Positions 31,500 to 52,049 of a stretch of DNA of 64,000 bases are shown piece by piece. Location of the stretch: NCBI GenBank assembly GCA_902802755.1, contig CADCNH010000010.1, positions 41,300-105,299 of the forward strand, given 5' to 3'. Position 1 is the first letter of the stretch, and each line of letters begins with the position of its first letter. The stretch is from an uncultured Bacteroidota bacterium. Lineage in GTDB: Bacteria > Bacteroidota > Bacteroidia > Bacteroidales > WCHB1-69. The position numbers and the translations under genes are program-made. The notes under the pieces were generated by a model that was not told where the DNA came from, searched no databases, and was given only the letters and a program-made list of their open reading frames with translations.

Positions 31500-31700
31500 G
31501 TGCAAGCATCACATACGTGTCAAAGAAACGACACCCACACGAACTCGATAGCACATGTGTAAGGTATATGGAGACACGCATCTCTCCGTGTCGAAGACAC
31601 GACATCCTATTAACCCCTCACAAGCAACGAAGTTGCGCAGTGTGGGGCAAACGACAACCAACACTAATCCTGCGTGCCGGAGGCACGCTACTATCACAAC
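31500..31700. repeat. REP hairpins upstream of RAYT-2
   Basis: gtgtcaaagaaacgacac, ggagacacgcatctctcc, gtgtcgaagacac, attaacccctcacaagc..gcgcagtgtgggg, gcgtgccggaggcacgc. Confidence 0.75.
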
Positions 31701-31715
31701 ATAAAACTAAAAATT

Positions 31716-32168
31716 ATGAGTTACACTACATCTTATTATCACATCGTCTTCCGCACCTTTCGCAGCGAAATGACAATCTCAGCAGAATATGAGCGAGAAC
31801 TATACGCCTACATATATGGCATTGCAAAAAATCTCCATTGCCAAACCTTCCGTATAGGCGGCATGCCAGACCATATTCATCTTTTCGTATCACTACCATC
31901 TACATTGTCATTGGCATCTTTTGTGCAACGGGTGAAGACCGACAGCTCCAAATGGATAAAAGCCAACGCTCACTTTCCAGACTTTCGTGGCTGGGGTCAC
32001 GAATATGCTGGCTTCAGCTACAATCTTCGGGACAGAGACAAGATAGTAAACTATATCATTCGGCAGAAAGAACATCATCAACAACTTTCCTTTGAGGAAG
32101 AATACAAGTCCTTCGTAGAGAATAATGGAATAACTATTGACGAGCGCTACTTTTTACAAGACAAGTAG
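31716..32168 (+). mobile_element. IS200/IS605-like Y1 transposase, REP-associated (RAYT-type), copy 2
   Basis: MSYTTSYYHIVFRTFRSE..., HUH motif PDHIHLFVSL, IVNYIIRQKEHH. Immediately flanked by gcgtgccggaggcacgcta (31672-31690) and its near-perfect inverted copy tagcgtacctccggcacgc (32168-32186). Confidence 0.8.
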
Positions 32169-35097: not shown

Positions 35098-35111
35098 TTC
35101 TCAATAAAGAA

Positions 35112-35140
35112 AGGAGGTTGGTTTCAACCTCCTTTTTTTA
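35112..35140 (+). terminator. Rho-independent terminator of pnp
   Basis: aggaggttgg-tttc-aacctcct followed by tttttta. Confidence 0.75.
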
Positions 35141-35149
35141 TACCTTAAA

Positions 35150-35700
35150 AGTGTCGAAGACACTTCACGCGCCGCCAGGCGCAATTAACACCATACAAGC
35201 AACGAAGTTGCGCAGTGTGGTGAGCGCACATGACGTAGCCCGACACCGACATGGGACTACATGCCGGAGGCATGACACGCGCCGCCAGGCGCAATTAACA
35301 CCATACAAGCGGAGCGCAGTGTGGTGAGCACACATGACGTAGCCCGACACCGACATGGGACCACATGCCGAAGGCATGGCATGCGCCGTCAGGCGCAATT
35401 AACACCATACAAGCAACGAAGTTGCGCAGTGTGGTGAGCGCACATGCCACGCAATCATACAGCATGACGTCCACACATGCCGTAGCTCTACACCGACATG
35501 GACAACATGCCGAAGGCATGGCACGCGCCGTCAGGCGCAATTAACACCATACAAGCAACAAAGTTGCGCAGTGTAGTGAGCTCACATGACGTAGCCCGAC
35601 ACCGACATGGGACTACATGCCGAAGGCATGGTACGCGCCGCCAGGCGCAATTAACACCATACAAGCGGAGCGCAGTGTGGTGTAACGGGCACTATCGGTA
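35150..35700. repeat. REP array: five tandem composite units (about 105-140 bp each)
   Basis: gcgcaattaacaccatacaagc recurs at 35179, 35289, 35393, 35535 and 35645. Each unit contains gcgcc(g/a)..aggcgc, caccatacaagc..gcgcagtgtggtg and catgccg(a/g)aggcatg hairpins. Confidence 0.85.
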
Positions 35701-35774
35701 TAAGCATCTCGAAGAGATGCCACTAAAACAATAATCCAACCATCTCCTCGTTACTTCTCAAAAAACAAATACCC

Positions 35775-36212
35775 ATGAGCTACACACAGACATCTTATCA
35801 TATTGTCCTCCGCACCCATCGCAGCATTCCCGCCATAGTGGAGGATCACGAGCGCGAGCTTTACTCCTATATCCTTGGGTTCATTAACAACAAGGACGGC
35901 CACCTTTACCGCATCGGAGGCATGCCCGACCATGTACACCTTTTTGTATCTCTGCCAGCAACCTTGGCCATGTCCAAATTTGTCCAAGAACTCAAGATTG
36001 CCTCCAGCAAGTGGCTCAAGGCCAACCCTGACTTTCCGCTTTTTGACGGATGGTCTAAGGAGTATGCTGGATTTTCCTACAATCTTCGAGATAAGGACAT
36101 GATAGTCGGCTATATTGCCAAGCAGAAGGAGCATCATAGTCAGAAGACGTTTGCGGAAGAGTACAGGGAGTTCCTGACGGAGAATTGTCGCATCTCTCCG
36201 AGATGCCAGTAG
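35775..36212 (+). mobile_element. IS200/IS605-like Y1 transposase, REP-associated (RAYT-type), copy 3
   Basis: MSYTQTSYHIVLRTHRS..., HUH motif PDHVHLFVSL, IVGYIAKQKEHH. About 55-60% identical by eye to copy 2. Confidence 0.8.
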
Positions 36213-36480
36213 CGAGCACGCTCTCCTGTCACCACACTGCGCTGCGCTTGTATGGTGTTAACTGCACTGCGTGCGTGCAGCCTCTCCGAGGCTGTTTTGC
36301 GTGTCCGTTCTCTCATCACCACACCGCCATCCGCATCCTTTTGTACCACACTGCTGCGCTTGTATGGTGTTACTTGCACTGCGTGCGTATCACCTCTCCG
36401 AGGCGAGCCTCCACCGGCACCGTACTGTCCATCAATCCGATGCGAGTGTCGGAGGCAATTTCGGCAAGACAACGCACAAT
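36213..36480. repeat. REP units downstream of RAYT-3 (inverted relative to the 35150-35700 array)
   Basis: caccacactgcgctgcgcttgtatggtgttaa occurs twice, and is the reverse complement of the array core. Confidence 0.75.
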
Positions 36481-36520: not shown

Positions 36521-39500
36521 TCAATTAATAATCGGTTCTTTACAGGAATCCAAATAATTCAAACCCTTCAATTTCAATTCTGGATAATTGAGGATAGACA
36601 AAGGTGTTTCGCTTTTCTTAAGGTAGGACGTGGGTATTACTGTAGCCGTCAACATCATTGACTTTACCACAGGATTTTTCGAGATACCTATGAACTTTTT
36701 CACCTGTTCAAGATTTTCCAGTATCCACTTATGACGACGTAGATGTTTCAAAACAAGAGCTTTGTCTTTTTCGGTGCCTTCCCCCCTGCCAAGATAATCA
36801 TCCATCTCTTTCTTCATTTCACGTACATTCTTGGCTGTGGTGGTATTTTTACATTCTATGGAATAGAGTATATTCTTGGCGGGATAGTAAGCCAAAACAT
36901 CAATATCGCCATAATCTGTATTTTTTGTCGTCACATTTAAATTACCGTTGGTTTTGATGGAGACATCGTATGGCCATACTGTCAATCCTGATAATTGACT
37001 TAAAAAGGACCGGACTTCCTCATTAAAAGTATGACCTTTTTTTGTCTGGAACTGGCTTAATACCTTTTCCAACTCCCTTCCCCCATTTCTCAACCGTCCC
37101 GAATAGAGTAAATCCGTTAATTGAAAACCGGCTGCTATACAGGAACGGAAACCGAACATGCACAAAACCTGACCATTTGGGGTTTGATGACGAACTATCG
37201 GACGCCTTAAATAGCTAAGCTCCCTGTTATAAATCCAAGGGAAGATGTCTTTTCCATTCAGACCGGAAGGCGGTGTCAGATAATTCTTGCGTTTGTCAAG
37301 TGAAAGACGGCTGATACAGTTCTTTATTGATTCCACAGTCATTTCTGGGTAGATCGTTTTAACTTCAGTCACCAAATCATCTTCCATAATACTTATAACT
37401 GACACCTGATGATTCATTGCAATCACATAACACGCATACAAAAGCTGTAGTATATCGGAGTATGTCACACCCCAGTCCGCTTCAAAGGCCTCATCTATCT
37501 TTATTTGTTCCTTATCTTTTTCAACCACTTTCCTTGGCTTTTGTGACGTAAGTCGTTCCATCGTTTTTGCAAAGACCTCAATTTGGTAGTTTACACTCTC
37601 TTCTGAACGGGCACTGGCAAAACCACCTAATGAGTCGTTGAAATCTTCATCGTTGATTTCATAACGTGCAGAAGGAAGCAACTCTATGTTATGGTCGGCC
37701 ACTTCAAGATGAATTGCATCACAAATACCGCCAATTCTAACCACATCACTTGCAATGGCAAGCAAATATTCCACATCATCACCTCCATGTTGCTTCATGC
37801 CAGTTTGACTTTGAGTAGCGGCCAAATACTCAATCAACACCCGGGTGGCAAGACTTGTTTCTGTAAGCCGGTTTTCATCTGCCAAAAATTTCTTTCTTTT
37901 CTCCGGGGTATCACCAAAACAAATAATCTGGGCAGGGTGAATCACTTTGTTATGCTCACGTATATGAATCAAGGTTTCGTGGTTGTTGAGCAAGGTTTCG
38001 AGCAAGGCTTTGGTGTCAAAATCGGCAAGTCCCTCCTCAAGTTTTTCCAAAAGCACATCCACGCCGGAATGTAAAAATTCAACTTTCTGCTGTTTATCCT
38101 CCAGTTTGGTGATTACAAATCCTTTATCGGCCATCCACCTTGGAAAGAGGTCAAGTAACAACTGATTTGTGGCTTGATGAATATAAATTGGAGGATAAAG
38201 CCATAGAGGCGATTCCATTGGATTGTTGGACACCTCTGTCATCAATATCATTTTAGTTTGGCCAAACGGTATTCTTTCGTCAATTATCGCTGTTGCAGTT
38301 GAATAATCAAGGCCAAACAATTCCTTGACTATAGCCAACATCATTTTTCTTTCAGAGCCATTGTCTGGGACCATAAATGATTGTATAAAATCACGGTCAA
38401 GTGAAACCATTACTCCTTTATCATTTTTAGTTACAGTCAATGATCCGGCACCTTTCGTTGGCTTGATTTCGGTGTATTGTCCTTTGTCAGAAAGAACATC
38501 CTCACTTAATTGCAAATCGATTTCGACTGTCTTAGTATAATGCTGCTTTACCAATCCCTTTAACAATGAGCTCAACTCATCCATCCAAAAGACTATCGCC
38601 GTGATGATGGTTTCGATAATCGAAAACGGATTCACCCCCTTCCCTTCTATTTGCGAGCACCTTGACCAAACAGGCACAGGATATGATTCGCAACATTCAG
38701 CTACGATTGATTTGTCAAGGGGTTTATAAATATTCCTATAGTCCGTATGCCGCTGTACGGGTATATAGGCATAATCGCTATCAAGTGAAAGAAGCACGCC
38801 ATGAAAATTCAGTTTCTCCTTGCTTTCAAAAATCAGATGAAAACCGTCGTTAGGTTGAACATATATAAAATTCGGGCTGGTCTTGTCAGTCACATAAAAG
38901 CTTTCACCATAGTGCTTATAGAGCGAGTATAAATCAATTTCTTCATTAAATGGCGAACCCAAGTACTGCTGAAGTTCTTTTGTACGAGCATAACGCACCA
39001 AACTCATGTTGTCCCATTTTTCCGTTTGAATCAATTGCAGGAAATCAAAAGCGGGAAACCTCAACAGGTAATTAGTATCAGGTTGTTTTCCAATATCCAC
39101 AGAAAACGACTCACCCATAGTGGAATAAAGAACCAGTGTCAGGACATGATTGTCTTTTGTCCTGGGATCAAGCCTTAACTTTGACAACGTTTCTCTCAAA
39201 TGAGTTTCAATGCTCCATTGGGTTTGATTATTTTTACCGTCAATAGAGACATTTGTTTCGTCATCCTTCGTGTAACAAACGTATGCGAGCCAATTGTTGT
39301 CAATCTGAAACAGTTCTTCGCTGCAACGAGAGTTGGAAGATAGCAGATCGTTGTAATCAGAGGTGCACCAACGCATGCTATTAATGCAAGATGAACCAAT
39401 CCGCATCCATACGGTGTGTTGCGTATGCTGCACGAGTTCCTGTAAACAGCTATACTTAACCGCTGTTTTCAGAATAAAGTTGTTGATAGCGCAACCCTGA

Positions 39501-40357
39501 TTAAACAGCCCTAGAAAAAAATAATTACCATTGTAGGCAACGATAGGTTTGAACAAAATAGGGTTCTCGTCATCAATATTCGTTAAAAGTTTTGGGTCGT
39601 TGTTATCAATGACAAACGAATCCAGCACACGCTTTTTGATGCCGAAACGCCCGAGAAGCCCTGCCATCATTTCGTCAGAAACAGCAAATGATTGTTTTGA
39701 TTTTGAATCAACAAGTTTTTCGTGTTGTTGCTCATTGCCTCTGATCCGCCCATGTATGCCGGCACGGTCAGCCAGCATGTTCCCCAATTCAAGAATCAAA
39801 GTTACACCCTGATATACATCCCTCTGAAAATCGACTGGGAAAATGTCATTCCGATAAAAGACGGTCTCCGACATAGCACGAAACAATTCCGCCACATGCG
39901 TTGATATGCCCGGGAAGAAAACGTAGTTGCCACCATAAAACACAACTTGTTCGGTGTACATATTGATGGGCAAATCCTCCATCACGTCCATTGGATACTC
40001 TTCGTCAACGAGCGACTTGAAGACATTAAGATTGGGAGCCGCCTGACTTTTCCCTAATGACGCCACGGTCAATTGTGAAAGATGCTCAATACGAAGATTC
40101 TTGCCATGGTTTTGAGGATTTAGCTGCAAGGCAATCAGGTAATCCATTATAGGAGTGACATCATATTTTTTGAGAAAAGTTTTGATTTTCGGAGCATTAT
40201 GTCCTGAAAATTTGGGTAACATGTCGATCAACTTGGTTGAACCAATCTCTGACCGATCCAACTGCAAACAACAATGCTTATATTTCTTACCACTACCACA
40301 AGAACATGGGTCGTTTCTTCCAATCTTCTTTGGCATATGCTTGCATCTATCAATCAT
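36521..40357 (-). CDS. 1278-aa protein: N-terminal SEC-C zinc motif, long uncharacterised body, C-terminal PD-(D/E)xK-like nuclease motif
   Basis: GRNDPCSCGSGKKYKHCC at 40262-40320. C-terminal GHTFNEEVRSFL ... YGDIDVLAYY ... ILYSIECKNT at about 36845-36990. I found no Walker A (GxxxxGK[ST]) anywhere. AT-rich. Confidence 0.75.
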   Translation of the reverse strand: MIDRCKHMPKKIGRNDPCSCGSGKKYKHCCLQLDRSEIGSTKLIDMLPKFSGHNAPKIKTFLKKYDVTPIMDYLIALQLNPQNHGKNLRIEHLSQLTVASLGKSQAAPNLNVFKSLVDEEYPMDVMEDLPINMYTEQVVFYGGNYVFFPGISTHVAELFRAMSETVFYRNDIFPVDFQRDVYQGVTLILELGNMLADRAGIHGRIRGNEQQHEKLVDSKSKQSFAVSDEMMAGLLGRFGIKKRVLDSFVIDNNDPKLLTNIDDENPILFKPIVAYNGNYFFLGLFNQGCAINNFILKTAVKYSCLQELVQHTQHTVWMRIGSSCINSMRWCTSDYNDLLSSNSRCSEELFQIDNNWLAYVCYTKDDETNVSIDGKNNQTQWSIETHLRETLSKLRLDPRTKDNHVLTLVLYSTMGESFSVDIGKQPDTNYLLRFPAFDFLQLIQTEKWDNMSLVRYARTKELQQYLGSPFNEEIDLYSLYKHYGESFYVTDKTSPNFIYVQPNDGFHLIFESKEKLNFHGVLLSLDSDYAYIPVQRHTDYRNIYKPLDKSIVAECCESYPVPVWSRCSQIEGKGVNPFSIIETIITAIVFWMDELSSLLKGLVKQHYTKTVEIDLQLSEDVLSDKGQYTEIKPTKGAGSLTVTKNDKGVMVSLDRDFIQSFMVPDNGSERKMMLAIVKELFGLDYSTATAIIDERIPFGQTKMILMTEVSNNPMESPLWLYPPIYIHQATNQLLLDLFPRWMADKGFVITKLEDKQQKVEFLHSGVDVLLEKLEEGLADFDTKALLETLLNNHETLIHIREHNKVIHPAQIICFGDTPEKRKKFLADENRLTETSLATRVLIEYLAATQSQTGMKQHGGDDVEYLLAIASDVVRIGGICDAIHLEVADHNIELLPSARYEINDEDFNDSLGGFASARSEESVNYQIEVFAKTMERLTSQKPRKVVEKDKEQIKIDEAFEADWGVTYSDILQLLYACYVIAMNHQVSVISIMEDDLVTEVKTIYPEMTVESIKNCISRLSLDKRKNYLTPPSGLNGKDIFPWIYNRELSYLRRPIVRHQTPNGQVLCMFGFRSCIAAGFQLTDLLYSGRLRNGGRELEKVLSQFQTKKGHTFNEEVRSFLSQLSGLTVWPYDVSIKTNGNLNVTTKNTDYGDIDVLAYYPAKNILYSIECKNTTTAKNVREMKKEMDDYLGRGEGTEKDKALVLKHLRRHKWILENLEQVKKFIGISKNPVVKSMMLTATVIPTSYLKKSETPLSILNYPELKLKGLNYLDSCKEPIIN

Positions 40358-40410
40358 ACTTCCATATCATCTATAAGTTCCAAATTATTTTTATACTCTG
40401 TTTCTCTTTG

Positions 40411-40656
40411 TCATGGCCAGAGGCATGGACAAACTGATTTATATGCAAAAACCATGCCACTTCCCACTGTCAAATAATCATTTTCAACATCTGTTAATTT
40501 ACTCAAGCACAAACAATTCCGTTTTATTCTATACAACAAGTCACGAAACACGTTTTTTTGTAATTCTGTAAATCTTGATGAATCGTTAATCATATTACCA
40601 CAATCACATATTGATTGTATTGTTTTTCGGTATTTGTTATCGTTTTTCTTATTCAT
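40411..40656 (-). CDS. Small CxC-rich hypothetical protein (81 aa from MNKKNDN)
   Basis: Three CxC motifs (CDCG, CLCL, CPCL). 53 bp upstream of the 1278-aa gene on the same strand. The start was chosen downstream of a TATTTTTG box; the track ORF extends to 40743. Confidence 0.4.
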   Translation of the reverse strand: MNKKNDNKYRKTIQSICDCGNMINDSSRFTELQKNVFRDLLYRIKRNCLCLSKLTDVENDYLTVGSGMVFAYKSVCPCLWP

Positions 40657-40668
40657 AAGATATTTGGC

Positions 40669-40676
40669 TATTTTTC
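40669..40676 (-). promoter_or_regulatory. -7 box TATTTTTG, with TTTG upstream
   Basis: The minus strand reads ggaagTTTGgaaaatttgTATTTTTGccgaaaaatagcc...ATG. The leader would be very short. Confidence 0.35.
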
Positions 40677-40726
40677 GGCAAAAATACAAATTTTCCAAAC
40701 TTCCATAAAACAAAAGGAAAAGGGCA

Positions 40727-40846
40727 TCACGCTCCCTTTTCAATCACCGCAATCTCCTCCTCCGTCAACCCGTACAACTCGTACACCAACCCGTCAATTT
40801 TCAGTTCCAAAGCAGACGTGTCTGCAGAAATGTCTTGCTTTTTCAG
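40727..40846 (-). pseudogene. Fossil C-terminal tail of a type IIG R-M / BREX PglX-like methyltransferase
   Basis: The minus-strand frame gives LKKQDISADTSALELKIDGLVYELYGLTEEEIAVIEKGA*. The motif (V/I)YELYGLTEEEI..(I/V)E is the characteristic end of Eco57I/PglX-type enzymes. Only about 39 codons remain, after an in-frame stop. Confidence 0.5.
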
Positions 40847-40955
40847 TTAAAGAATAGTTTTAACAAAAGATAACATTCCGGTTTTACAATGATAACCCAC
40901 CTCCATTTAATCGTTAATAATATATCAATAACCTATTTAGCCTTACTTACTCTAT

Positions 40956-43730
40956 TTACAACACCGTTATACTTCCCGTTAACTGATATGGAACACCCCG
41001 GCTATCGGTAAAATTAATCAAATAAGTATAGATAACATTTTGATTGATTCGACCATGATACTCGCCATACCATTTGAAATCCTTGTCATTTGAATAGTAT
41101 ACCAACTCTCCCCAACGACTATAGATGCGGATTTCGAATTCTTCTATCATTGCTTTGTACTTGTCGTGGAGTCCAAAATAATCATTCAAACCGTCTTCAT
41201 TTCCCGGTGTAATGGTGTTTGGTAGATAAATATTTAACTCACAAGTTTCTATTTGATACCATGCAGATACTGAGCAATTCCCTTGAGCAGCTGTTACAGT
41301 ATAAATGCCAGGTTGAGTTACAATGATAGTTTGTGAAGTTTCCCCTGTACTCCACATATAATTCATTATATTAGTCTCTACAGATAATTCTGCATAATAC
41401 TCTTCACAAAAATCCGAAGTCAAGGAGTTGATTGCTATTGAAGTATCCACTATGGTGAGATGAAGGGTCACAATACTATCACACTCGCTTTGGCTTTGCA
41501 AATTTTGAGTCATGTTCAAGTTTGTCACACCAGCTGTTTGAGTAGAAGGAATATTGAATCCGTGATTGTTATATGCAAAGCCTTCGCAAATAATGTCCTC
41601 AAAACTAATCTCGTACACTGGGTTTATCGTTAAGTGCAAAGTATCCGCACTGGCACAACCATTAGTATTAGTGTATTCAAAAATGTAAATACCAGAAGTA
41701 GAGTATGTTTCACCATTACCATCTATCCAAGTATAACTTTCGCAAACAGAGGTATCAAGAATATTGTGTGTGCCATGGTAAATAGCAAGGTGTAAGGTCA
41801 TAATACTGTCTGCCCCATTAATATCTTGGAATCTTTGGACATAATCACCGCTTGTTGTATATGTGCTATCATTCCATGTATATGAATCGCAAGATACGAC
41901 CGAAAATTCGCCTGAGAAGGAATAGTGAATAGTCAAATGCAGAGTATCTGCCTGGTTACACCCATTAGCATCTGTATGATTGTATATATAATTGCCTGAT
42001 TGGTTGTATGTCTCGCCATGCCATATATAAGTATCATATGCGGATACCGTCTCGCTTTCGTGCAGAGGAATGTTTACTGTCAGATGTAAAGTGTCTGTGG
42101 ATACGCATCCGCCAACATTATTGTAGTTATAAGTATATGTACCCGAGGATGTGTAAGTTACACCATGCCATGTATAACTCTCACAAACAGTTGTGTCAAA
42201 TACATTGGAAGTATTATAACGAACAATCAAGTGCAGAGTGTCAGTACTTGGGCAACCATTTACATTGTTATAGTTATGTGTAAATGTACCCGAGGTGGTG
42301 TATATTACATCATGCCACTCATAACTATCACAAACAGTTGTGTCAAACGAATTGTGAGTATTAGAACGAACTATCAAATGTAGGGTATCAGCACTTGGGC
42401 AACCGTCAGCATTAATGTAGTCATAGGTATATGTACTCGTAACATTATATGTTTCGCCCATCCATTCGTAATATTCACAAACAGTTGTGTCAAACACATT
42501 GTATGTGCTATAACGAACCGTCAAATGTAGCGATACCACACTATCGCAACCAGCATCATTTGTAAAGGTATGCCTAAATGTGCCACTTCCACTGATATTG
42601 TTGTATTCATACCAACTGAAACTATTACAAACTGTTGCTATAGTGTCACTTGTATTGTCATGATTTACTGTCAAATGTAGTGTTACCACGCTGTCACAAC
42701 CATTACGTTTGTTGAAATACTGAGTGTAATCACCACTTTCATAGTATGTGACACCGTTCCATTCATAACTATTACAAACTTCTTGTGATAGCCCCATTGA
42801 GTCTGTAGGAGATATGTATAATTGAAGGGTAAGAGAAGAGATGCATTCATCAGTAGTAAGCATTCGACTTCGGGTAAGTGTACCCAATATTCTGGTTTCC
42901 ATCTCTGAAAGACTAAAGCCATTGGCTTCATAATTAGTTCCTTGACAAACCGTATCGTATATTGTTTGCGAAGTGCCCGTCCCTACAATAATAGTCTGTT
43001 CTGCAGTATTACTGCATCCATAGTCAGTAGTTGCAGTTACGGTATATGTGGTAGTTTGTGTAGGTGAAACATTAATGTATGGGTATGTACTGCCCGTGTT
43101 CCAAAGATAAGTTAATGATGTATCATACCCCATTCTTGCAGTTGTAAAACTATGTACTGCACGGACATGACAAATAGAAGTTTTGGAAGTGTTGTTAAAA
43201 GAACCTCCAGAATAGTCATTTATTCCAAAATCTATCCTCCAGCTATTTGTTTCCGAGAATTCTGCACTACACCAATACCAGTCATTCGACATAGAAGTTC
43301 CACCTGCATTGATAATTGAAGTAGAAATAAAAGGCAATTGACCATATAGCATTCTGAGTTGAGCCGGAGAAGGTAATACCCAACCATTTTCAAAATCCAC
43401 AACACCTGCAGCATAACCAGTGTTAACATTCTGATACATACGAATGATTTGCGTATTAGTATAACCTGCTGTATCTGTTAATAAATCCTGATAATAAAAC
43501 GGATTTAAATTAATTAATGCTGGCACATCAGTAGTTGTTCCCCAAGCACATCCCGTGGATGCATCTGTCAAAGCTACAACCCATCCAACACCATTGGAAT
43601 TGATATAATATATTATACCGCTACTACCATTGGGTAATGTATAAATATCTCCAATTCGGTATGACTGTGCCATCAATGTCATCACCCAACTAAAAAACAT
43701 CAGAAAAAATAATAATATTTTCTTGTTCAT
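40956..43730 (-). CDS. Secreted surface protein: N-terminal DUF1566-like domain, about 9 Cys-containing tandem repeats, T9SS type-B C-terminal sorting domain
   Basis: 924 aa with a signal peptide. GYTNTQII..GWVLPSPAQLRMLY..YWCSAE..CHVRAVHSF (DUF1566 pattern). Repeats C(N/D/E)SY(E/T)W.G.TY..SG.Y......GC.S..TLHL.V. C-terminal LPNTITPGNEDGLNDYF...ITVL is a gliding-motility-associated CTD. Confidence 0.8.
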   Translation of the reverse strand: MNKKILLFFLMFFSWVMTLMAQSYRIGDIYTLPNGSSGIIYYINSNGVGWVVALTDASTGCAWGTTTDVPALINLNPFYYQDLLTDTAGYTNTQIIRMYQNVNTGYAAGVVDFENGWVLPSPAQLRMLYGQLPFISTSIINAGGTSMSNDWYWCSAEFSETNSWRIDFGINDYSGGSFNNTSKTSICHVRAVHSFTTARMGYDTSLTYLWNTGSTYPYINVSPTQTTTYTVTATTDYGCSNTAEQTIIVGTGTSQTIYDTVCQGTNYEANGFSLSEMETRILGTLTRSRMLTTDECISSLTLQLYISPTDSMGLSQEVCNSYEWNGVTYYESGDYTQYFNKRNGCDSVVTLHLTVNHDNTSDTIATVCNSFSWYEYNNISGSGTFRHTFTNDAGCDSVVSLHLTVRYSTYNVFDTTVCEYYEWMGETYNVTSTYTYDYINADGCPSADTLHLIVRSNTHNSFDTTVCDSYEWHDVIYTTSGTFTHNYNNVNGCPSTDTLHLIVRYNTSNVFDTTVCESYTWHGVTYTSSGTYTYNYNNVGGCVSTDTLHLTVNIPLHESETVSAYDTYIWHGETYNQSGNYIYNHTDANGCNQADTLHLTIHYSFSGEFSVVSCDSYTWNDSTYTTSGDYVQRFQDINGADSIMTLHLAIYHGTHNILDTSVCESYTWIDGNGETYSTSGIYIFEYTNTNGCASADTLHLTINPVYEISFEDIICEGFAYNNHGFNIPSTQTAGVTNLNMTQNLQSQSECDSIVTLHLTIVDTSIAINSLTSDFCEEYYAELSVETNIMNYMWSTGETSQTIIVTQPGIYTVTAAQGNCSVSAWYQIETCELNIYLPNTITPGNEDGLNDYFGLHDKYKAMIEEFEIRIYSRWGELVYYSNDKDFKWYGEYHGRINQNVIYTYLINFTDSRGVPYQLTGSITVL
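41450..42780 (-). repeat. Coding tandem repeats (about 150 bp / about 50 aa, roughly nine copies)
   Basis: Successive units begin CNSYEWNG, CNSFSWYE, CEYYEWMG, CDSYEWHD, CESYTWHG, YDTYIWHG, CDSYTWND, CESYTWID, CEGFAYNN. Each ends with (T/S)LHL(T/I/A)(V/I). Confidence 0.8.
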
Positions 43731-43821
43731 ATTATGAGAAGAAAAATCTTATTTTATATAACACATATCCCCGTTTAATATTTATAACAGCTCATTTTTG
43801 TCTATTATCTGTCAATTATCG

Positions 43822-46116
43822 TTAAAAAGAGAAAACACTTCGCACCCTAAAACGACTCCTCTTACTACTGAAAGCCACTTCTCCCGTATTTGTCACAACC
43901 CATGCATTGGAAGCCCCATGTTCTGTAGAAGACCAATAAATCCATGCTTGACCCATAGGAAATGGCGTTCCTCCAACATTTTCCATGGAAGCGTTGATAG
44001 TTGTTAATTCTGCAAAAAGCAGGCTCAGTTGTCCAACTGTTGGCAAATACCAACCATTAACAAAATCTATCGCCTGTACAACTGGACAATCATGTGAATA
44101 ATACATCCACTGCGTGTTTGTGTAACCATTCAAATCAGTAATAGCATCACGAGCGTTTGTAAAATTAGGTATAGTTGAAAAATCATTATTGTAATAACCT
44201 GATGATGTCCAAAATACATTTATTCCTTGGTCTTGTAAATGCACCGCCCATCCGTGCAACTCAGTATTGTCCACATAGAACACTATACCTTTGGCGATTT
44301 TACCTGGCACAGGCCAAGCAGTGGGTTTAACGATGCTACTATCTGTACAAAGGATATCACCAATAGCAACAGTGGGAGCTATACCATCCTGTGAGAAGCC
44401 AGAACTAGTGCCTAGAGCAAATATTGTAGAACGCTGCCCTATACAAATCTCAACTGGCTGCGCCAATGCAGTAAGCGAAGGTGTACTCGTTACCAACAAC
44501 TGCAAGATACGCACACTATCACAACCTTGGCTTGTTATATAACTATTGATAAACCTGAACCAGCCAATGCTGTCTTGTCTTGCCAAATTAAAACCATAAC
44601 GGTGATATGTATTACCCTCACACAAAGTATCCTGAAAAAAATAATGGTATGTTGGTGAATGGATTACCTCTATCGGGATACTACCACTACCACAACCATT
44701 AGTTCCTGTTAGAAAAATCTGAGCAGGATTAGGAGCATCATTAGTGAAATATAAGTTAACTGCGGCAGTGCCTTGTCCTGTCAGAATATTTACACCCACA
44801 GGCACATTCCAATAGAGAGTGGCTAACCCTTCAGCTTGTAATAGAACATACTGAAACGCTTCGTTGTCGCACACCATAGTTGGTCCGCTTATACTATTAC
44901 TCAATATAAAAGAGGGATTAACTGTCAAGTGCAATATCGTAAGCTGATCGCAACCTGAAGGAAGAACCATCACCAATGTGTCTGTATAATTCCCCGTTTG
45001 TAGATTTGTATAGTGAAAACCATAGGCATTATAATCATCACCTTGGCAGGCTGCGTCATAGAGATGATGATATCGGGGCAAAATAGTTAGATGGAGTGTT
45101 GTCGTCATCTCTCCACCGGTACAATTTCCGCTATTAAAAAATGTGTTTCGATAGGTATGGGTACCTGTATTATATTGTGCAGGTAAATCAAAAAAATGGT
45201 CATTATATATGTCGCCCTCACATATCGTATCATATATAGTTGTACTGACAATAGGAATTGTGGAATCTGCCATAAAAATACCGCTAAGGGTAAACTGACA
45301 ACCTGTGACAGATGTTATCAAACAGTTCGCATTTGTTGTACCCTCCCCAGCTATATAGGTAGAGCTAATCAATGTATCACCATTATCCCAAGTATAACTT
45401 TCAAAATTAGCAGGGGCAGTCAAAGTAAACTCATCACCCTCGCAACCATCTAATGTCAAGCGATTATTGATACATGAAGCGGTATAATAAGCATAACCAA
45501 AATGCCCATGTCTTGAACAATCATAATTTACAAATTGAACAAAAACATACTGCCCAGCATAGTCAGAGAGATCAATGCCAACTTTTGTCCAAGGGCGCCA
45601 TTGTATCCAACCAGATGCATATGATTGAAAACCTGGAATATCACCTGCCGCAGTCACATCATATTCGGCACAACTATCCACCAACTGTCCTATACTATTA
45701 AGCACTCTCACCACAAAACGAGGTTGATCAGGTACTGGATGACGGGGATCCTCAAACACTACCGCAAATTTCAACAGCAATATAGCACGATCAGGATCTA
45801 CTATAAACTTGTAGGTAATTGCTTCCGCCTCAGCACCAACTTGTTCATTGCCGAGCTTTACAACGGCATTCTCTCCTGGTGGTAAAAAAGGCAACTGATG
45901 CCCCGTGTTTGGATCAGTCCCTTGTTGGGTAATCACAGTATGCCGTCCTACAACAACACCCGTATACTGCATTGGATTCTGGGTATTACCATATTGACAG
46001 GTTACATTTGAATCACTTAAATTAGTAAAATCGGGACACTGAGCATGTATCAGTAGTAAAGTACTACTTAAATACAATAATAAAAGCAAAATCCAACTTT
46101 TCATCCCTGTATACAT
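43822..46116 (-). CDS. Secreted surface protein with the same Cys-repeat type and a C-terminal DUF1566-like domain
   Basis: 764 aa with a signal peptide. Repeats ...C.G..Y..(Y/H)GF......G.Y......GCD...L.LTV. C-terminal GIVFYVDNTELHGWAV..GYTNTQWM..GWYLPTVGQLSLLF..YWSSTE..RVRSVFSF. Confidence 0.75.
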   Translation of the reverse strand: MYTGMKSWILLLLLYLSSTLLLIHAQCPDFTNLSDSNVTCQYGNTQNPMQYTGVVVGRHTVITQQGTDPNTGHQLPFLPPGENAVVKLGNEQVGAEAEAITYKFIVDPDRAILLLKFAVVFEDPRHPVPDQPRFVVRVLNSIGQLVDSCAEYDVTAAGDIPGFQSYASGWIQWRPWTKVGIDLSDYAGQYVFVQFVNYDCSRHGHFGYAYYTASCINNRLTLDGCEGDEFTLTAPANFESYTWDNGDTLISSTYIAGEGTTNANCLITSVTGCQFTLSGIFMADSTIPIVSTTIYDTICEGDIYNDHFFDLPAQYNTGTHTYRNTFFNSGNCTGGEMTTTLHLTILPRYHHLYDAACQGDDYNAYGFHYTNLQTGNYTDTLVMVLPSGCDQLTILHLTVNPSFILSNSISGPTMVCDNEAFQYVLLQAEGLATLYWNVPVGVNILTGQGTAAVNLYFTNDAPNPAQIFLTGTNGCGSGSIPIEVIHSPTYHYFFQDTLCEGNTYHRYGFNLARQDSIGWFRFINSYITSQGCDSVRILQLLVTSTPSLTALAQPVEICIGQRSTIFALGTSSGFSQDGIAPTVAIGDILCTDSSIVKPTAWPVPGKIAKGIVFYVDNTELHGWAVHLQDQGINVFWTSSGYYNNDFSTIPNFTNARDAITDLNGYTNTQWMYYSHDCPVVQAIDFVNGWYLPTVGQLSLLFAELTTINASMENVGGTPFPMGQAWIYWSSTEHGASNAWVVTNTGEVAFSSKRSRFRVRSVFSF

Positions 46117-46678
46117 TAAAATGTATTATTTAATATTTTTGCCATAATATTTACGTTTTTTTTTGCATTTTGTTTTTCTAAAAAGAAGCATAAAAAATCC
46201 GTGAAACTTTCTGTCTGATTGGAGGCTCTGGACTGCCTATATCCCAAAACGAGAAAGCCCACGGATTTACCGTGAGCATTTCTGCCTTCTCGTTGGGATT
46301 TGAAATTGTCCAGATTTCCAATCACTTGAACAGCAAAAACGCTTTATACTATATGTTTATCTTTTTATTCTATTCTTCTATTGTTATGATATTAATTTTT
46401 TGTTTTTGTTTCTGTTTTATTTTATGGTGCAAAGATAGGAATTATTTTCGAATTGACCGCAAAAAGAACGAAGTTTGTAGTGCTCCGCCACATAAGTACA
46501 GCTTTATTTATCCATTTTTATAAGAATCGTAATGCTTTTTCTAATATTTCTTTTTCCATAGGTGCTTTATAATATGTTTTTTTTCTATTTTGTTGGTTTG
46601 ATATATTGTATGTTTAATTATTGTTTATGTACGTATAAGATATAGATAATGAGGAACGTAGAGAATATTTCCAAGAGA

Positions 46679-49600
46679 TTATTGTTGTTTTTTCACTTCC
46701 TTATCATGGATTTTCCGAAGATTCTCAAGTACTTCCAAAATTGGTGCCGTGTTTTTTTCACTTTCAGGAATTAGGGGGTCATCATCCCATTCTAACGCAT
46801 TGACTGCCATACTGGAATCTGTAATGCGCCAAGCATCAATAATGACTATTGATGTGACTTCAATAGCTTCTTCAAAGTCATCGGGCACCTGAATTTGGTT
46901 GTTGTTATCTATAGCAAGAGCCATCAGTTTGCATTTGCCAAAGTGTGGTAGAAACTTTTCTAATGCATCAAGACTATATGTATTGTTGGGAGTCATTGTA
47001 TGCTTACGACACATCACTATAAAATACCGTCCCATCTTTAAGTCAGCGTCAGGAATATTTGGAGAAAGGCACACTCGATACCATGAAGGGTGATTTTTAT
47101 CGATTCCTTTTATCAAATACACTTCAACTCCAGGTTTTCCTACCGCTATGTTATCTTTCCATTCCTTAACAATTTTTTTGCCTTCTGAGATGTTCTCATA
47201 AAGTAGAGCCAATAGAGGAGGCTCTTGCATGCTCTGATCTATAATAAATCCCATTCCTTTCCAAATTGCATCATCCCACCACTGCATGTTTGTTGAAACA
47301 TTGTAAATAGACATTTTCTGCTGTGATGATGTGTATTGCTGGGTCTTCACCATCCACTTTTCCATATCTTTAGCAAGACATGTATAGATTTTGTCTTCTT
47401 CTTTCTGCCATTGGCTAATGGAATACTTGAATTTGTTACCTAATACCAAGTAGACCGACTCATTTAATTGCATTAATGAGGATACCCTGTCAATTATTTT
47501 CTCTTTGTCCTGTTTCTTTTTTATCAATGTTTCCAAATTGTAGTTTGAAACCGTATTGTAGGACATAAAATGACTTATGAAATAAGAGAAACATCGCCAA
47601 TAGTCCTTGTTCAAAGAATCATGATTGATACTGAAAATGTATTCCGTGTTAGAAGATCTTCTAATTTGTGAAGTTTTATCATTAGTCTCTTTTATCGTAA
47701 TTCTAATCTCTGGATTTACAATTACTAATTCAAAATCTATAAAAGTAGCAAGCAACGTTTCAACCGAAGCCAAGAATGTCTCTGCCACCAACTGATTCTT
47801 TACAGAGTTTTCGTATGTAACATAAAACCGACAATTATGCACCATTGTATTTAGGGCAACCTCTCCATCTGTTGCTAAATTAAGAGCACTTAAGAATTGC
47901 TCATGAATAGGTTGATTTTGTAGTAATAATGTCCAGTCATCTTTTATCATTTCAGAAAACCTTTCATTTACCTCTTCTTTGTATCCAAGAACATATTTAA
48001 GATAATTGGCACATAACGGCATATCAAATCTTTCAAAGATGTCGGGAAGTATTGAGATTTCCGACTTGGTAAAATCAGCAGCTGCTAAATGGCAACACCA
48101 GCCTCCTTCCTCCATAGTGTCACGTTCTATAAATTCTTCTGTTTCATATTCTTGTCTATTATTGGCAATGACATATAGTAATTCTCTCCAATTAAGATAC
48201 ATGACAAGCCGCCCAAGTATCAATTCTATTCCACAAAGTTGAGAAATGACTCGCATAAGGAGTTGTGGTATTGTGCCCTGAGAATAAAACTCTCTCATCA
48301 AGAATGATGCAGACTTAACAAGATATGCTTCTGCACTATATGGAAGATCCAAATGACTCAGTGCTATTCCCATAAGCCCACATGTCTTTATGTATTCATC
48401 CTCATACCCTTCTTTTAGGAATGCTTGTACGCAATATCCCAAATGCTTTATGGCTGGAAGATGACACATCTTTTCCATCAACGCTTGAGCACGACTGAAA
48501 TGAATCAATGCACCTTGAACATCAGATTCTCTTGCCGATGAAATTTCAGCCACTTTATCGACCAGTTTTTCAAACTGTTCATTGTTTGTGATAACACGCC
48601 CCATCATGTCAATGATTCTGGATTGGGCATCAAAGCTGATGTCTACGTAGTTCACACTTTTTTCAAGCAATTCTGTAAGTGCTCTGATTTCATCTGACAA
48701 ATCTTTTTCAGCATAGATAAGTTGGAATAGTCTGTGTTCTGAAATATAAATATCTATAAATAGTTGACAGGGCTGTGATAAATCCGAACGCTCTCTTATA
48801 GACTTAATGAATTCTACCTCTATAATGAATTTTTCTTGGTCAAAAAGTCCAATCTGTGTAACATTCTCAATATTGGTCAAAATATTGGTCAACAACTCTA
48901 TTGTATGCACAGATGTATGTACAGACGCATAATCCTTCATTTTCAGATAGTCTTCATAAGTTGCATTTATGTCATTGAACCAAAAGAAAGTTGTCCATGC
49001 ATGATTATATATTATGTTGAATGTTTGAATAGGGGTGCCGTGTACTTTGGCTTCTCTCAACGCACGGTCAAACCGACCTTCTGTTTCTACTCTTGGCTTT
49101 CCTAATCCCCTGCTAAGCAAACAGGTCTCCAATAAATCATCAATATACTGTGTGTTAAGGCCCTCTATTGAACGAGTAAGAAAACCGTCTTCTAAATCTT
49201 TCAAATCCTTCGACCTTTGTTTGTCATTTGGACCAATAATAACTGTTTTCTTGCGATATTCGTCAGAGAAGTTCATTTTGTCTACTGCCAAGTCCAAACA
49301 CCCTTGTTCAAATACAGCAAAAGAGAACCAATTACCATCAAAGATACTAACCGGAATAGAATATTGCTTGGTAAGTTTGTCCTCAACTTCACAGCGTTTA
49401 CTTGATTTTATTTTTTGATTTGAGAAAAACAAGATTTTGGTATATCCTCGTTCCGTCCCAACTATTTTTTTCGTGTCATTTGTTACTTTTTTCTCCCATG
49501 TCTTCTGTACACTGATTGCAATTGCCCATTTTTGATCGCCAGTGCATCCATCAGACACCCACCACTTATCAGATATGGATTTATCTACAGGATATGTCTC

Positions 49601-49900: not shown

Positions 49901-50001
49901 ATTTGTTTATTGTTGACGATTCCAAGTTCCTTTTCTGACAATCACTTTACTTATTTCCTATCCTCTCAATTGTTCAAACATAAATGCAGTTTTATCCCTA
50001 T

Positions 50002-51968: not shown

Positions 51969-52049
51969 TGCAAAAACACACAAACATTTCAATATCACAC
52001 ATATAGACCCTTCTTTTTTTGGAACTATTTCTTATAGTTTTGCTGACAT

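What the first reader, a model, noticed from the sequence alone, without database searches (positions are those of the whole stretch)
36521..40700. Giant SEC-C-motif / PD-(D/E)xK-motif protein (1278 aa) with an upstream CxC-rich mini-ORF
The ORF begins with a near-consensus SEC-C metal-binding motif (NDPCSCGSGKKYKHCC). It ends with a restriction-endonuclease-like signature (FNEEV ... GDIDVLAYY ... SIECKNT). Between them lie about 1000 residues with no P-loop and no motif I can name.

53 bp upstream on the same strand is an 81-aa ORF with three CxC pairs, behind a TTTG/TATTTTTG promoter-like sequence.

The pair sits in AT-rich DNA. It lies directly between a RAYT/REP block and the fossil end of an R-M/BREX-type methyltransferase, which is a typical defence-island neighbourhood. 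A zinc motif plus a large sensor-like body plus a nuclease, without an NTPase, is not an architecture I can assign to a described system.
Basis: partly seen in the sequence, partly recalled or inferred. Interest (0 to 1): 0.8.

Follow-up and report, generated by a model that had tools for sequence, protein, structure and literature searches.

The report
Upx-type anti-phage nuclease with SEC-C tail
The giant gene is a full-length, intact member of the known Upx family of single-protein anti-phage nucleases. The small ORF in front of it is only the stump of a deleted neighbouring gene, so the finding is largely ordinary apart from a little-discussed SecA-type metal-binding tail.

Summary
There is a 1278-aa ORF at 36521-40357 (-) with an N-terminal SEC-C motif and a C-terminal D...ExK motif. 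An 81-aa ORF lies 53 bp upstream. A RAYT/REP block sits on one side and a fossil methyltransferase tail on the other.

The architecture is not unassigned, however. The protein belongs to the Upx family (Gao et al. 2020):
- Pfam PF28173 'Upx-like' is assigned to it.
- PADLOC Upx matches at E=5.5e-50 and NCBIfam Upx at E=3e-59.
- It matches the SeUpx cryo-EM chain 9WUF by sequence (E=3e-25), with D1153/E1168/K1170 aligned to the catalytic D1161/E1176/K1178.
- AlphaFold models of both halves find 9WUF as their only significant PDB match (TM 0.69 and 0.61).

Upx was characterised in 2026 as a sensor-nuclease triggered by phage large terminase.

The mini-ORF is a pseudogene stump. It is the first 63 codons of a 246-aa gene that is intact in a relative whose Upx is 91% identical, cut by a ~683-bp deletion. 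It is absent from other Upx loci.

The SEC-C tail occurs in about two thirds of related representatives, and neither Upx paper mentions it. It may bear on the open question of co-translational terminase capture.

Verdict: new member of a known kind, low to moderate interest.

The parts
36521..40357 (-). Upx-family gene, 1278 aa from the first ATG. The likely true start is M8 at 40336, giving 1271 aa. The stop codon is at 36521-36523.
   Evidence: ORF. PADLOC Upx E=5.5e-50. NCBIfam Upx_antiphage E=3.2e-59. Pfam PF28173 'Upx-like' precomputed. phmmer against 9wuf_A E=3e-25. The identical protein occurs on 7 metagenome contigs.
40265..40318 (-). SEC-C / SecA-type metal-binding motif, residues 14-31 (RNDPCSCGSGKKYKHCCL). 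It sits on a predicted disordered N-terminal tail (residues 1-47).
   Evidence: Pfam PF02810 E=2.5e-8. Matches SecA and YchJ MBD peptides in the PDB. C18, S22, C29 and C30 are unchanged in all 111 close homologues that include the N-terminus; C20 in 110 of 111. pLDDT is below 50 for residues 1-47.
38813..40216 (-). N-terminal sensor domain (NTD), roughly residues 48-515. Boundaries are carried over by analogy with SeUpx.
   Evidence: The AF2 model of residues 1-720 (pLDDT 83.7, pTM 0.84) has 9WUF as its only significant PDB match: E=1.2e-24, TMq 0.69, 13% identity. hhalign against SeUpx-type fragments aligns from about residue 383 onward, probability 100%. N83, R89, E127, D128, G143 and G150 are conserved in at least 85% of 119 representatives.
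38228..38812 (-). Middle domain (MD), roughly residues 516-710. Boundaries are carried over by analogy with SeUpx.
   Evidence: The PADLOC and NCBIfam Upx profiles align from residues 571-578 onward. Both AF2 models cover this region and both match 9WUF.
36524..38227 (-). C-terminal domain (CTD), roughly residues 711-1278. It includes the PD-(D/E)xK core (about residues 1106-1278, window 36524-37042).
   Evidence: phmmer alignment to 9wuf_A covers residues 740-1248 against 747-1253. The AF2 model of residues 560-1278 (pLDDT 82.2) has 9WUF as its only significant match: E=1.6e-24, TMq 0.61.
36848..36901 (-). Catalytic motif codons: D1153 (36899-36901), E1168 (36854-36856) and K1170 (36848-36850).
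   Evidence: These residues align with SeUpx D1161/E1176/K1178. Codons verified. They are unchanged in every close homologue that covers these columns (116-117 of the 121 aligned sequences) and in all 119 representatives with a median 25% identity.
40411..40656 (-). The 81-aa 'mini-ORF'. It is a pseudogene stump of a 246-aa gene. The deletion junction lies at about 40468-40475, and the last ~18 codons are read from former intergenic DNA.
   Evidence: tblastn of the intact 246-aa protein (L089 6732-7472) gives 81% identity over residues 1-63. blastn shows L089 6918-7600 (683 bp) missing from the window. No gene is called here on the window's own contigs. It is absent from the other Upx-like loci.
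40733..40870 (-). Fossil 3' end of a type IIG restriction-methyltransferase gene, with an in-frame stop.
   Evidence: tblastn to the last 46 aa of the 1103-aa Eco57I/N6_Mtase/TaqI_C protein of L089: 65% identity, E=1e-13. That protein matches PADLOC REase_MTase_IIG at E=7e-125.
35100..36470 (.). RAYT (Y1_Tnp, 35775-36212 +) with flanking inverted REP arrays. This block bounds the 3' side of the Upx gene.
   Evidence: Pfam Y1_Tnp E=4e-20. Repeat families D1-D3 and inverted pairs I1-I10. Homology with the relative's locus ends at 36428.

Best explanation
The ORF encodes an intact Upx-family anti-phage protein from a Bacteroidota host, probably a rumen Prevotellaceae. It works alone, as a single polypeptide.

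By homology with the characterised SeUpx, HpUpx and PbUpx proteins, the likely mechanism has three steps:
1. The large N-terminal and middle region acts as a sensor. During infection it binds the ATPase domain of the phage large terminase. [quoted passage not shown]
2. Binding releases or activates the C-terminal PD-(D/E)xK nuclease, whose catalytic residues here are D1153/E1168/K1170.
3. The nuclease degrades DNA and stops phage production. This may happen by killing or arresting the infected cell.

The N-terminal SEC-C motif is an optional accessory module on a flexible tail, and its role is unknown. The upstream mini-ORF and the methyltransferase tail are deletion debris from an ancestral arrangement of helicase, type IIG R-M, a 246-aa gene and Upx. 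They play no part in the mechanism.

Shown here: family membership, fold, conserved catalytic residues, defence context, and the pseudogene status of the mini-ORF. Inferred from the literature on homologues: the trigger, the nuclease substrate and the outcome for the cell.
For: **Sequence**
- PADLOC Upx E=5.5e-50, residues 578-1247.
- NCBIfam 'anti-phage protein Upx' E=3.2e-59.
- Pfam PF28173 'Upx-like' is assigned to this protein and to 119 of its 120 listed homologues (the exception is a 755-aa fragment). The same Pfam family is assigned to SeUpx-type proteins.
- phmmer against the SeUpx cryo-EM chain 9wuf_A gives E=3e-25, with the D...ExK motifs aligned.
- hhalign of this family against SeUpx-type sequences gives probability 100%, E=6e-41, over 819 columns.

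**Structure**
- AF2 models of residues 1-720 and 560-1278 each find 9WUF as the only PDB match with E<=0.001. TMq is 0.69 and 0.61.

**Conservation**
- D1153/E1168/K1170 are 100% conserved in 119 representatives with a median 25% identity.
- The family has 2123 representatives at the 50%-identity clustering level, nearly all about 1200-1290 aa.

**Genomic context**
- Six of eight distinct contexts of close homologues carry defence genes within 10 kb. These include type IIG and other R-M genes, AbiL and AAA_21/SLFN genes.
- One context has an Avs1b-like STAND gene overlapping the Upx start by 4 bp. This matches the Upx-Avs1 association reported by Evans et al.

**Literature**
- SeUpx, HpUpx (from a Bacteroidota host) and PbUpx are each activated by diverse terminase ATPase domains.
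- The SeUpx E1176A mutation abolishes both defence and toxicity (PMC13601566).
Against: - No experiment exists on this protein or its close clade. It shares only 13-18% identity with SeUpx in the structural alignments.
- Its NCBIfam score (200 bits) is far below the equivalog cut-off of 1900. It is therefore a distant family member, not an orthologue.
- The two 2026 papers disagree on the trigger (ejection protein gp16 versus large terminase) and on the outcome (direct immunity versus toxicity or abortive infection).
- Two of the eight homologue contexts are polysaccharide gene clusters with little defence content.
- The neighbourhood survey is small and has no background control.
Confidence: 0.75

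Rival explanations
1. The family is the same (Upx) but the mechanism is the one proposed by Zhou et al. The protein is a dual 3'-5' ssDNA exonuclease with nuclease sites in both NTD and CTD. The NTD site is auto-inhibited by the middle domain and is released by a phage ejection or virion protein. The enzyme directly degrades phage replication intermediates and gives direct immunity without cell death.
For: Biochemistry and the cryo-EM structure of SeUpx support this (PMC13099982). The window family has a strongly conserved acidic dyad in the NTD, E127-D128, present in 93% of representatives, along with N83 and R89. This could be a second active site.
Against: Evans et al. found terminase (gp19) to be the only activator in a genome-wide PhiV-1 screen, and gp16 induced no toxicity. 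HpUpx also defends against T4, which lacks a gp16 homologue. I could not test whether the window's NTD residues correspond to SeUpx D122/D127/R129/E147/D173, because no SeUpx N-terminal sequence was retrievable.
Confidence: 0.18
2. One reading: a new two-gene defence system in which the upstream CxC-rich small protein is a partner, regulator or antitoxin of the giant nuclease.
For: The two ORFs share a strand and lie 53 bp apart, with promoter-like TTTG/TATTTTTG upstream.
Against: The small ORF is the first 63 codons of a 246-aa gene that is intact in the locus whose Upx is 91% identical. A 683-bp deletion follows those codons, and the tail is read from former intergenic DNA. Only the C17/C19 pair is ancestral. 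The gene caller called no gene there. Neither the stump nor the 246-aa gene is found in the other Upx-like loci examined. The ORF has no family hits.
Confidence: 0.02
3. The protein is the endonuclease subunit of the decayed restriction-modification module next door. On this view it is an orphan REase left after loss of its methyltransferase. Note that the PDB names 9WUF 'Restriction endonuclease'.
For: A type IIG R-M gene lies two genes upstream in the closest relative, and other R-M genes lie upstream in another homologue locus. The nuclease has a PD-(D/E)xK fold.
Against: Type IIG enzymes combine the nuclease and the methyltransferase in one polypeptide and need no separate nuclease (established knowledge). 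Homologues occur in many contexts without any methyltransferase. An intact orphan REase without its methylase would be lethal, yet the identical gene is intact on 7 contigs. SeUpx does not cut dsDNA in vitro.
Confidence: 0.03
4. The protein has a housekeeping role in protein export or chaperoning. NCBI labels relatives 'YecA family' or 'SEC-C domain-containing', which might suggest this.
For: NCBI names homologues 'YecA family protein' or 'SEC-C domain-containing protein'.
Against: Similarity to YecA, YchJ and SecA is confined to the ~20-residue motif, residues 8-33. The other 1240 residues are Upx. The gene has a patchy distribution and sits in variable islands.
Confidence: 0.01

Closest known systems
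Upx (Gao_Upx; Gao et al. 2020 Science). Best characterised as SeUpx from Salmonella enterica, PDB 9WUF (Zhou et al. 2026, PMC13099982; Evans et al. 2026, PMC13601566).
   Same: - Single polypeptide of about 1270 aa with no NTPase.
- NTD-MD-CTD architecture, with both halves matching 9WUF by fold (TM 0.69 and 0.61).
- C-terminal PD-(D/E)xK core with D/E/K at equivalent positions.
- Found in defence islands, and sometimes directly next to an Avs1-type STAND gene.
   Different: - Only 13-18% identity in the structural alignments.
- The NTD cannot be detected by the PADLOC or NCBIfam Upx profiles.
- It carries an N-terminal SEC-C metal-binding motif on a disordered tail. The Upx profiles do not match that motif and neither paper mentions it.
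- The host is a Bacteroidota organism.
- It has not been tested experimentally.
HpUpx from Hydrobacter penzbergensis (Chitinophagaceae, Bacteroidota), tested by Evans et al. 2026.
   Same: It is a Bacteroidota Upx that shares 16% identity with SeUpx. It is active against PhiV-1 and T4 and is triggered by terminase. Representatives from Chitinophaga, in the same family, fall in the window protein's branch and carry the SEC-C tail.
   Different: I could not retrieve the HpUpx sequence. Its identity to the window protein, and whether it has the SEC-C tail, are therefore unknown.
SecA C-terminal metal-binding domain, and YecA (AscA) and YchJ (SEC-C motif, PF02810).
   Same: The motif has the CxCxSGxKYKxC[CH] form with the conserved Ser, and it sits at the end of a flexible linker. 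The best PDB matches for residues 11-32 are SecA and YchJ MBD peptides.
   Different: Here it is at the N-terminus of a nuclease, whereas in SecA it is at the C-terminus of a translocase ATPase. No other SecA or YecA domain is present.
Avs1-3 (antiviral STAND NTPases that sense the terminase).
   Same: Probably the same trigger (large terminase), a nuclease effector, and a large sensor. An Avs1b-like gene abuts Upx-like genes in one homologue clade.
   Different: There is no STAND NTPase and no Walker A motif. No TPR sensor was found. [quoted passage not shown]
Rugutis (lactococcal plasmid antiphage protein with an N-terminal SEC-C motif; PMC11381338).
   Same: It is a defence protein with a ~20-residue SEC-C motif at its N-terminus.
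   Different: It is 359 aa long with an unrelated body, and it is not a Upx.

Membership tests
Upx (Gao_Upx / PF28173 Upx-like) | Single large polypeptide (~1200-1300 aa) without an NTPase domain | tested here: met
   The protein is 1278 aa (1271 from M8) and has no Walker A motif. Family representatives are nearly all 1200-1290 aa.
Upx (Gao_Upx / PF28173 Upx-like) | Significant match to curated Upx sequence models | tested here: met
   PADLOC PDLC02221 E=5.5e-50. NCBIfam NF042954 E=3.2e-59. Pfam PF28173 'Upx-like' precomputed. hhalign against SeUpx-type sequences: probability 100%, E=6e-41.
Upx, NCBIfam equivalog NF042954 (SeUpx-type orthologue) | Whole-protein score above the curated equivalog cut-off (1900 bits) | tested here: not met
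   The score is 200 bits and only residues 571-1246 align. The protein is a distant family member, not an orthologue of SeUpx.
Upx (Gao_Upx / PF28173 Upx-like) | C-terminal PD-(D/E)xK core with catalytic D...ExK (SeUpx D1161/E1176/K1178) | tested here: met
   D1153/E1168/K1170 align to them. They are 100% conserved in the 119 representatives and unchanged in every close homologue that covers these columns.
Upx (Gao_Upx / PF28173 Upx-like) | NTD+MD fold as in the SeUpx cryo-EM structure, a fold with no other PDB relatives | tested here: met
   The AF2 model of residues 1-720 has 9WUF as its only significant match: E=1.2e-24, TMq 0.69, 723 columns.
Upx (Gao_Upx / PF28173 Upx-like) | MD+CTD fold as in SeUpx | tested here: met
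   The AF2 model of residues 560-1278 has 9WUF as its only significant match: E=1.6e-24, TMq 0.61.
Upx (Gao_Upx / PF28173 Upx-like) | NTD 'minimal nuclease' residues reported for SeUpx (D122, D127, R129, E147, D173) | tested here: inconclusive
   A conserved E127-D128 dyad and N83/R89 exist. Only C-terminal fragments of SeUpx-type proteins were retrievable, and the fold search returns no residue alignment, so equivalence could not be established.
Upx (Gao_Upx / PF28173 Upx-like) | Anti-phage activity that depends on the ExK motif, and activation by the large-terminase ATPase domain | not testable with these tools
   This needs plaque and co-expression toxicity assays. It is known for SeUpx, HpUpx and PbUpx only.
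Upx (Gao_Upx / PF28173 Upx-like) | Occurrence in defence islands or variable regions, with occasional adjacency to Avs1 | tested here: met
   Six of eight contexts carry defence genes. An Avs1b-like STAND gene overlaps the Upx start in the P0025 loci. The window itself has AbiL 10 kb away. The survey is qualitative and has no background control.
SEC-C / SecA-type metal-binding domain (PF02810) | CxC...C[CH] ligands with the conserved Ser and basic/aromatic residues, scoring above the Pfam gathering threshold | tested here: met
   34.1 bits against a cut-off of 20.4. C18, S22, C29 and C30 are unchanged in all close homologues that include the N-terminus; C20 in 110 of 111.
SEC-C / SecA-type metal-binding domain (PF02810) | Zn/Fe binding, and binding to SecB or ribosomes | not testable with these tools
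   This is known for SecA and for AscA/YecA (10.1101/613315; 10.1101/2020.07.21.215244).
YecA family (the label NCBI gives to relatives) | YecA N-terminal (UPF0149-type) domain in addition to the MBD | tested here: not met
   All NCBIfam matches of the YecA/YchJ type are confined to residues 7-34.
Avs / STAND terminase sensors | STAND NTPase domain | tested here: not met
   There is no Walker A motif, and no AAA/NACHT Pfam or PADLOC Avs hit.

The most novel reading that the evidence does not exclude
The N-terminal SecA-type metal-binding motif sits on a disordered ~47-residue tail directly before the Upx sensor domain. It may dock Upx onto ribosomes, or onto a SecB-like chaperone. The sensor would then capture the terminase ATPase domain co-translationally, while it is still unfolded.

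This would answer the question Evans et al. left open: does Upx unfold native terminase, or does it only bind nascent chains? It would also explain why about two thirds of this branch of the family carry the motif, and why the same motif recurs on unrelated defence proteins such as Rugutis and the PADLOC E2/E1-E2/PDC-S12 proteins.
Probability: 0.15. Interest if true: 0.65.

Novelty: new member of a known kind. Interest (0 to 1): 0.3.

Why it matters
**Annotation.** NCBI labels proteins of this clade 'SEC-C domain-containing' or 'YecA family'. They should be read as Upx-family defence nucleases. The family is large: 2123 representatives at the 50%-identity clustering level. Rumen and gut Bacteroidota carry many copies, often in variable islands next to R-M, AbiL or Avs1 genes.

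**Biology.** The one point of wider interest is the SEC-C tail. It is a ribosome- and SecB-binding module in SecA and in AscA/YecA. Its frequent fusion to the sensor end of Upx suggests a concrete, cheap experiment. That experiment bears on how Upx sees an 'unfolded' terminase.

**The locus.** It also gives a clear small example of defence-island turnover. An R-M/helicase module was replaced by secreted-protein genes. A 46-codon methyltransferase tail and a 63-codon gene stump were left behind, and together they mimic a 'small partner ORF'.

Tried and rejected
1. **Genome-contig scan with the full-length alignment.** The tool chose the SEC-C peptide as its search pattern. L010 (Moraxellaceae) looked full-length but is four tandem ~625-aa ORFs.
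2. **Published Upx list.** I tried to check whether relatives' accessions (WP_219885181.1, MDR1653397.1, PRY91909.1) appear in Evans et al. Supplementary Data 5. The supplements are not held.
3. **Full-length SeUpx-type sequences.** Searching with the C-terminal 507 aa read from the PDB alignment returned only fragments of 883 aa or less. The reported NTD catalytic residues could therefore not be mapped.
4. **Viral contigs.** Only two hits appeared, both truncated C-terminal ~300-aa fragments beside an opposite-strand 483-aa ORF. There is no sign that the family is phage-borne.
5. **Sigma-70 promoter and terminator scan.** It found no more sites than in shuffled sequence, and it does not model Bacteroidota promoters.
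6. **The 246-aa ancestral gene.** It gives only a sub-threshold DUF5677 match (E=2e-4) and no PADLOC hit. Its function is unknown, and I rejected it as a Upx partner because it is absent from the other loci.
7. **Other ideas considered and rejected.** These were an orphan restriction endonuclease, a YecA-like chaperone, and an Avs-like STAND protein. See the rivals and the membership rows.

Full report
**1. Observation**

The ORF is real. It lies at window 36521-40357 on the minus strand, is 1278 aa long and starts with ATG.
- Residues 14-31 (RNDPCSCGSGKKYKHCCL) match Pfam SEC-C at E=2.5e-8, above the gathering score.
- The strings FNEEV, GDIDVLAYY and SIECKNT sit at residues 1111, 1150 and 1166.
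- There is no Walker A motif.
- The 81-aa ORF at 40411-40656 (-) ends 53 bp before the large ATG and has three CxC pairs.
- The RAYT (Y1_Tnp, E=4e-20) is flanked by inverted REP arrays.
- Window 40733-40870 (-) is a fossil 3' end of a type IIG restriction-methyltransferase gene, with an in-frame stop.

Two corrections apply:
- The family consensus begins MxKKIGRN, so M8 (window 40336) is the more likely start.
- The gene itself is only slightly AT-rich, at 40.6% GC against 43.2% for the window. The AT-rich stretch is 40358-52000, at 37%.

**2. What the protein is**

Three independent libraries name it.
- PADLOC 'Upx' matches at E=5.5e-50 over residues 578-1247.
- NCBIfam 'anti-phage protein Upx' matches at E=3.2e-59 over residues 571-1246. 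The score of 200 bits is far below the 1900-bit equivalog cut-off.
- The precomputed Pfam architecture of this protein, and of most of its 120 listed homologues, is PF02810 (SEC-C) plus PF28173. PF28173 is named 'Upx-like'. Proteins of the SeUpx type carry the same Pfam family.

Against the PDB, the only match beyond the 20-residue SEC-C peptides is 9wuf_A, the cryo-EM structure of Salmonella Upx (E=3e-25). In that alignment GDID/ECK of the window pairs with GDID/ECK of SeUpx. So D1153, E1168 and K1170 correspond to the catalytic D1161, E1176 and K1178.

The sequence profiles do not see the first ~570 residues, so I tested that region by structure.
- An AlphaFold2 model of residues 1-720 (pLDDT 83.7, pTM 0.84) has 9WUF as its only PDB match with E<=0.001: E=1.2e-24, TM 0.69 over 723 columns, 13% identity.
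- A model of residues 560-1278 (pLDDT 82.2) also finds only 9WUF: E=1.6e-24, TM 0.61.
- Profile-profile comparison with SeUpx-type sequences gives probability 100% and E=6e-41 over 819 columns, starting at about residue 383.

The whole NTD-MD-CTD architecture of Upx is therefore present.

**3. The family**

A profile of the MD+CTD region finds 2123 representatives at E<=0.001 in a library clustered at 50% identity. Nearly all are 1200-1290 aa.
- In 119 full-length representatives (median 25% identity to the window protein), D1153, E1168 and K1170 are 100% conserved.
- In the NTD, N83, R89, E127, D128, G143 and G150 are at least 85% conserved.
- Named relatives come from Prevotellaceae, Marinilabilia and Chitinophaga. 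NCBI labels them 'SEC-C domain-containing' or 'YecA family'.
- The identical window protein occurs on seven metagenome contigs. Their sample names suggest a rumen origin, but that is my inference.

**4. The SEC-C tail**

- Among close homologues that include the N-terminus, C18, S22, C29 and C30 are unchanged in all 111, and C20 in 110.
- The tail, residues 1-47, is predicted to be disordered.
- Across the wider branch, 80 of 119 representatives carry an N-terminal CxC...C[CH] motif.
- The first conserved core motif starts at a median of residue 64 in proteins with the tail and residue 27 in those without it.
- Presence is patchy on a neighbour-joining tree, with at least 25 changes. Some of the absences are start-codon calls.
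- The Upx profiles do not match this motif. Neither 2026 Upx paper mentions SEC-C or a zinc motif. No paper in the library holds both 'Upx' and 'SecA'.
- The motif also occurs on other defence proteins. It is at the C-terminus of the PADLOC E2, E1-E2 and PDC-S12 models and at the N-terminus of Rugutis.

**5. The mini-ORF and the fossil**

In loci of the homologue whose Upx is 91% identical (L089-L091), the gene order is: HKD-Snf2 helicase, a 1103-aa type IIG R-M gene, a 246-aa gene, then Upx.
- The window's 81-aa ORF matches residues 1-63 of that 246-aa protein at 81% identity.
- DNA homology then jumps across 683 bp of the relative (L089 6918-7600) and resumes in the 118 bp before the Upx start.
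- The last ~18 codons of the mini-ORF, including the third CxC, are therefore former intergenic sequence.
- The second CxC is CLS in the intact protein. Only C17/C19 is ancestral.
- The gene caller found nothing here.
- Neither the stump nor the 246-aa gene occurs in the other Upx-like loci. The 246-aa protein has only a sub-threshold DUF5677 match.

The mini-ORF is a deletion remnant, not a partner gene.

**6. Neighbourhoods**

I examined eight distinct contexts of close homologues (annotated):
- the window type, with R-M debris and AbiLi/AbiLii 10 kb away at 50002-51730;
- helicase plus type IIG R-M, with HicA;
- AAA_21, Trypsin_2 and SLFN_AlbA_2;
- an Avs1b-like 1952-aa STAND gene overlapping the Upx start by 4 bp;
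- AAA_21, E2/ThiF/JAB and AbiL;
- methyltransferases plus DUF2357/PDDEXK_7;
- integrases, IS elements and group II introns;
- two contexts set in polysaccharide clusters, one of them with a PDDEXK_9 ATPase, VapE, RhuM and HipA.

Defence genes are common near the gene. The Avs1 adjacency reproduces what Evans et al. reported. The survey is small and has no background control. In IMG/VR only two truncated fragments were found.

**7. Mechanism**

Upx was discovered by Gao et al. 2020 (reference 17).

Zhou et al. (PMC13099982) reported the following:
- SeUpx is a monomer with NTD, MD and CTD.
- It is a Mg-dependent 3'-5' ssDNA exonuclease.
- The catalytic residues in the CTD are D1161, E1176 and K1178.
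- The NTD contains a second, minimal nuclease site that the MD inhibits.
- The phage protein gp16 activates the enzyme.
- Defence works as direct immunity.

Evans et al. (PMC13601566) reported the following:
- The large terminase was the only activator found in a genome-wide screen.
- Three homologues were each activated by diverse terminase ATPase domains. One of them, HpUpx, comes from a Bacteroidota host and shares 16% identity with SeUpx.
- E1176A abolishes both defence and toxicity.
- AlphaFold 3 models show unfolded terminase strands threaded through the N-terminal sensor.
- gp16 induced no toxicity.

I take the terminase-sensor model as the most likely one for the window protein, because it was shown for distant homologues, including a Bacteroidota one. 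I keep the Zhou model as the main rival. The trigger, the substrate and the outcome are inferred from homologues and are not shown here.

**8. Most novel reading**

The metal-binding domains of SecA and of AscA/YecA bind ribosomes and SecB. Evans et al. leave open whether Upx unfolds native terminase or binds nascent terminase co-translationally. A ribosome-docking tail placed directly before the sensor would fit the second option. This is speculation. I give it a probability of about 0.15, and it is cheap to test.

**9. Verdict**

The protein is a defence sensor-nuclease, but the architecture is that of a described and now characterised family, and the small ORF is debris.
- Novelty: a new member of a known kind. 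It belongs to a distant clade that carries a SEC-C tail.
- Interest: 0.3.

Noticed in passing
window 50002-51730 (-): An AbiL-type two-gene defence system lies about 10 kb from the Upx gene. AbiLi (AAA_21 ATPase, 376 aa) matches PADLOC at E=4.7e-50. AbiLii (RloB, 203 aa) matches PADLOC at E=1.2e-10 and Pfam RloB at E=2.7e-23.
   Followed up: partly
window 40956-46447 compared with L090 2001-8948: This looks like a cassette swap. The intergenic DNA upstream of the HKD-Snf2 helicase in the relative (L090 2001-2261) is 71% identical to window 46192-46447. In the window, the helicase and the type IIG R-M genes are replaced by two AT-rich secreted-protein genes: a 924-aa CHU_C/T9SS gene and a 764-aa PKD/Lcl_C gene. 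Only the last 46 codons of the methyltransferase remain.
   Followed up: partly
window 35100-36470 and about 31674-32168: There are two IS200-like Y1 transposase (RAYT) genes. The one at 35775-36212 is flanked by inverted arrays of ~37-nt REP-like palindromic units: five copies on one side and two on the other. Homology with the relative's Upx locus stops at the REP array (36428).
   Followed up: partly
L094-L096, 4146-10004 and 10001-13822: In the clade 58% identical to the window protein, a 1952-aa AAA_16 STAND gene (PADLOC Avs1b, E=3e-33) overlaps the Upx-like start codon by 4 bp. This reproduces the Upx-Avs1 association reported by Evans et al. It would mean two terminase sensors in one operon.
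   Followed up: partly
L010 9992-17675 (Moraxellaceae bacterium VIAD01000016.1): Four tandem, similarly sized ORFs (624-626 aa) lie in a stretch picked up through the SEC-C peptide pattern. They are not Upx, and I did not examine them further.
   Followed up: no
L104 2649-3545 and L105 8001-8895 (IMG/VR contigs): The only Upx-like matches among 2.9 million viral contigs are C-terminal ~300-aa fragments (62-64% identity). Each lies next to a 483-aa ORF on the opposite strand, so they are probably insertion-disrupted remnants.
   Followed up: partly
window 40336-40357 (-): The first ATG adds seven residues (MIDRCKH) that are absent from the family consensus (MxKKIGRN). M8 at 40336 is the likelier start. 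In several homologue clusters, pairs of proteins differ by about 23 residues, which reflects alternative start calls that remove the SEC-C motif.
   Followed up: partly
window 46679-49900 (-): A 1073-aa ORF has no Pfam or PADLOC match at all. It lies between the AbiL pair and the T9SS cargo genes, in the AT-rich stretch.
   Followed up: no
Upx NTD, window residues 83-150 (about 39908-40111, -): N83, R89, E127, D128, G143 and G150 are conserved in 85-93% of representatives that share only about 25% identity overall. These residues could belong to a second active site or to the terminase-binding site. They were not mapped onto the SeUpx residues.
   Followed up: partly
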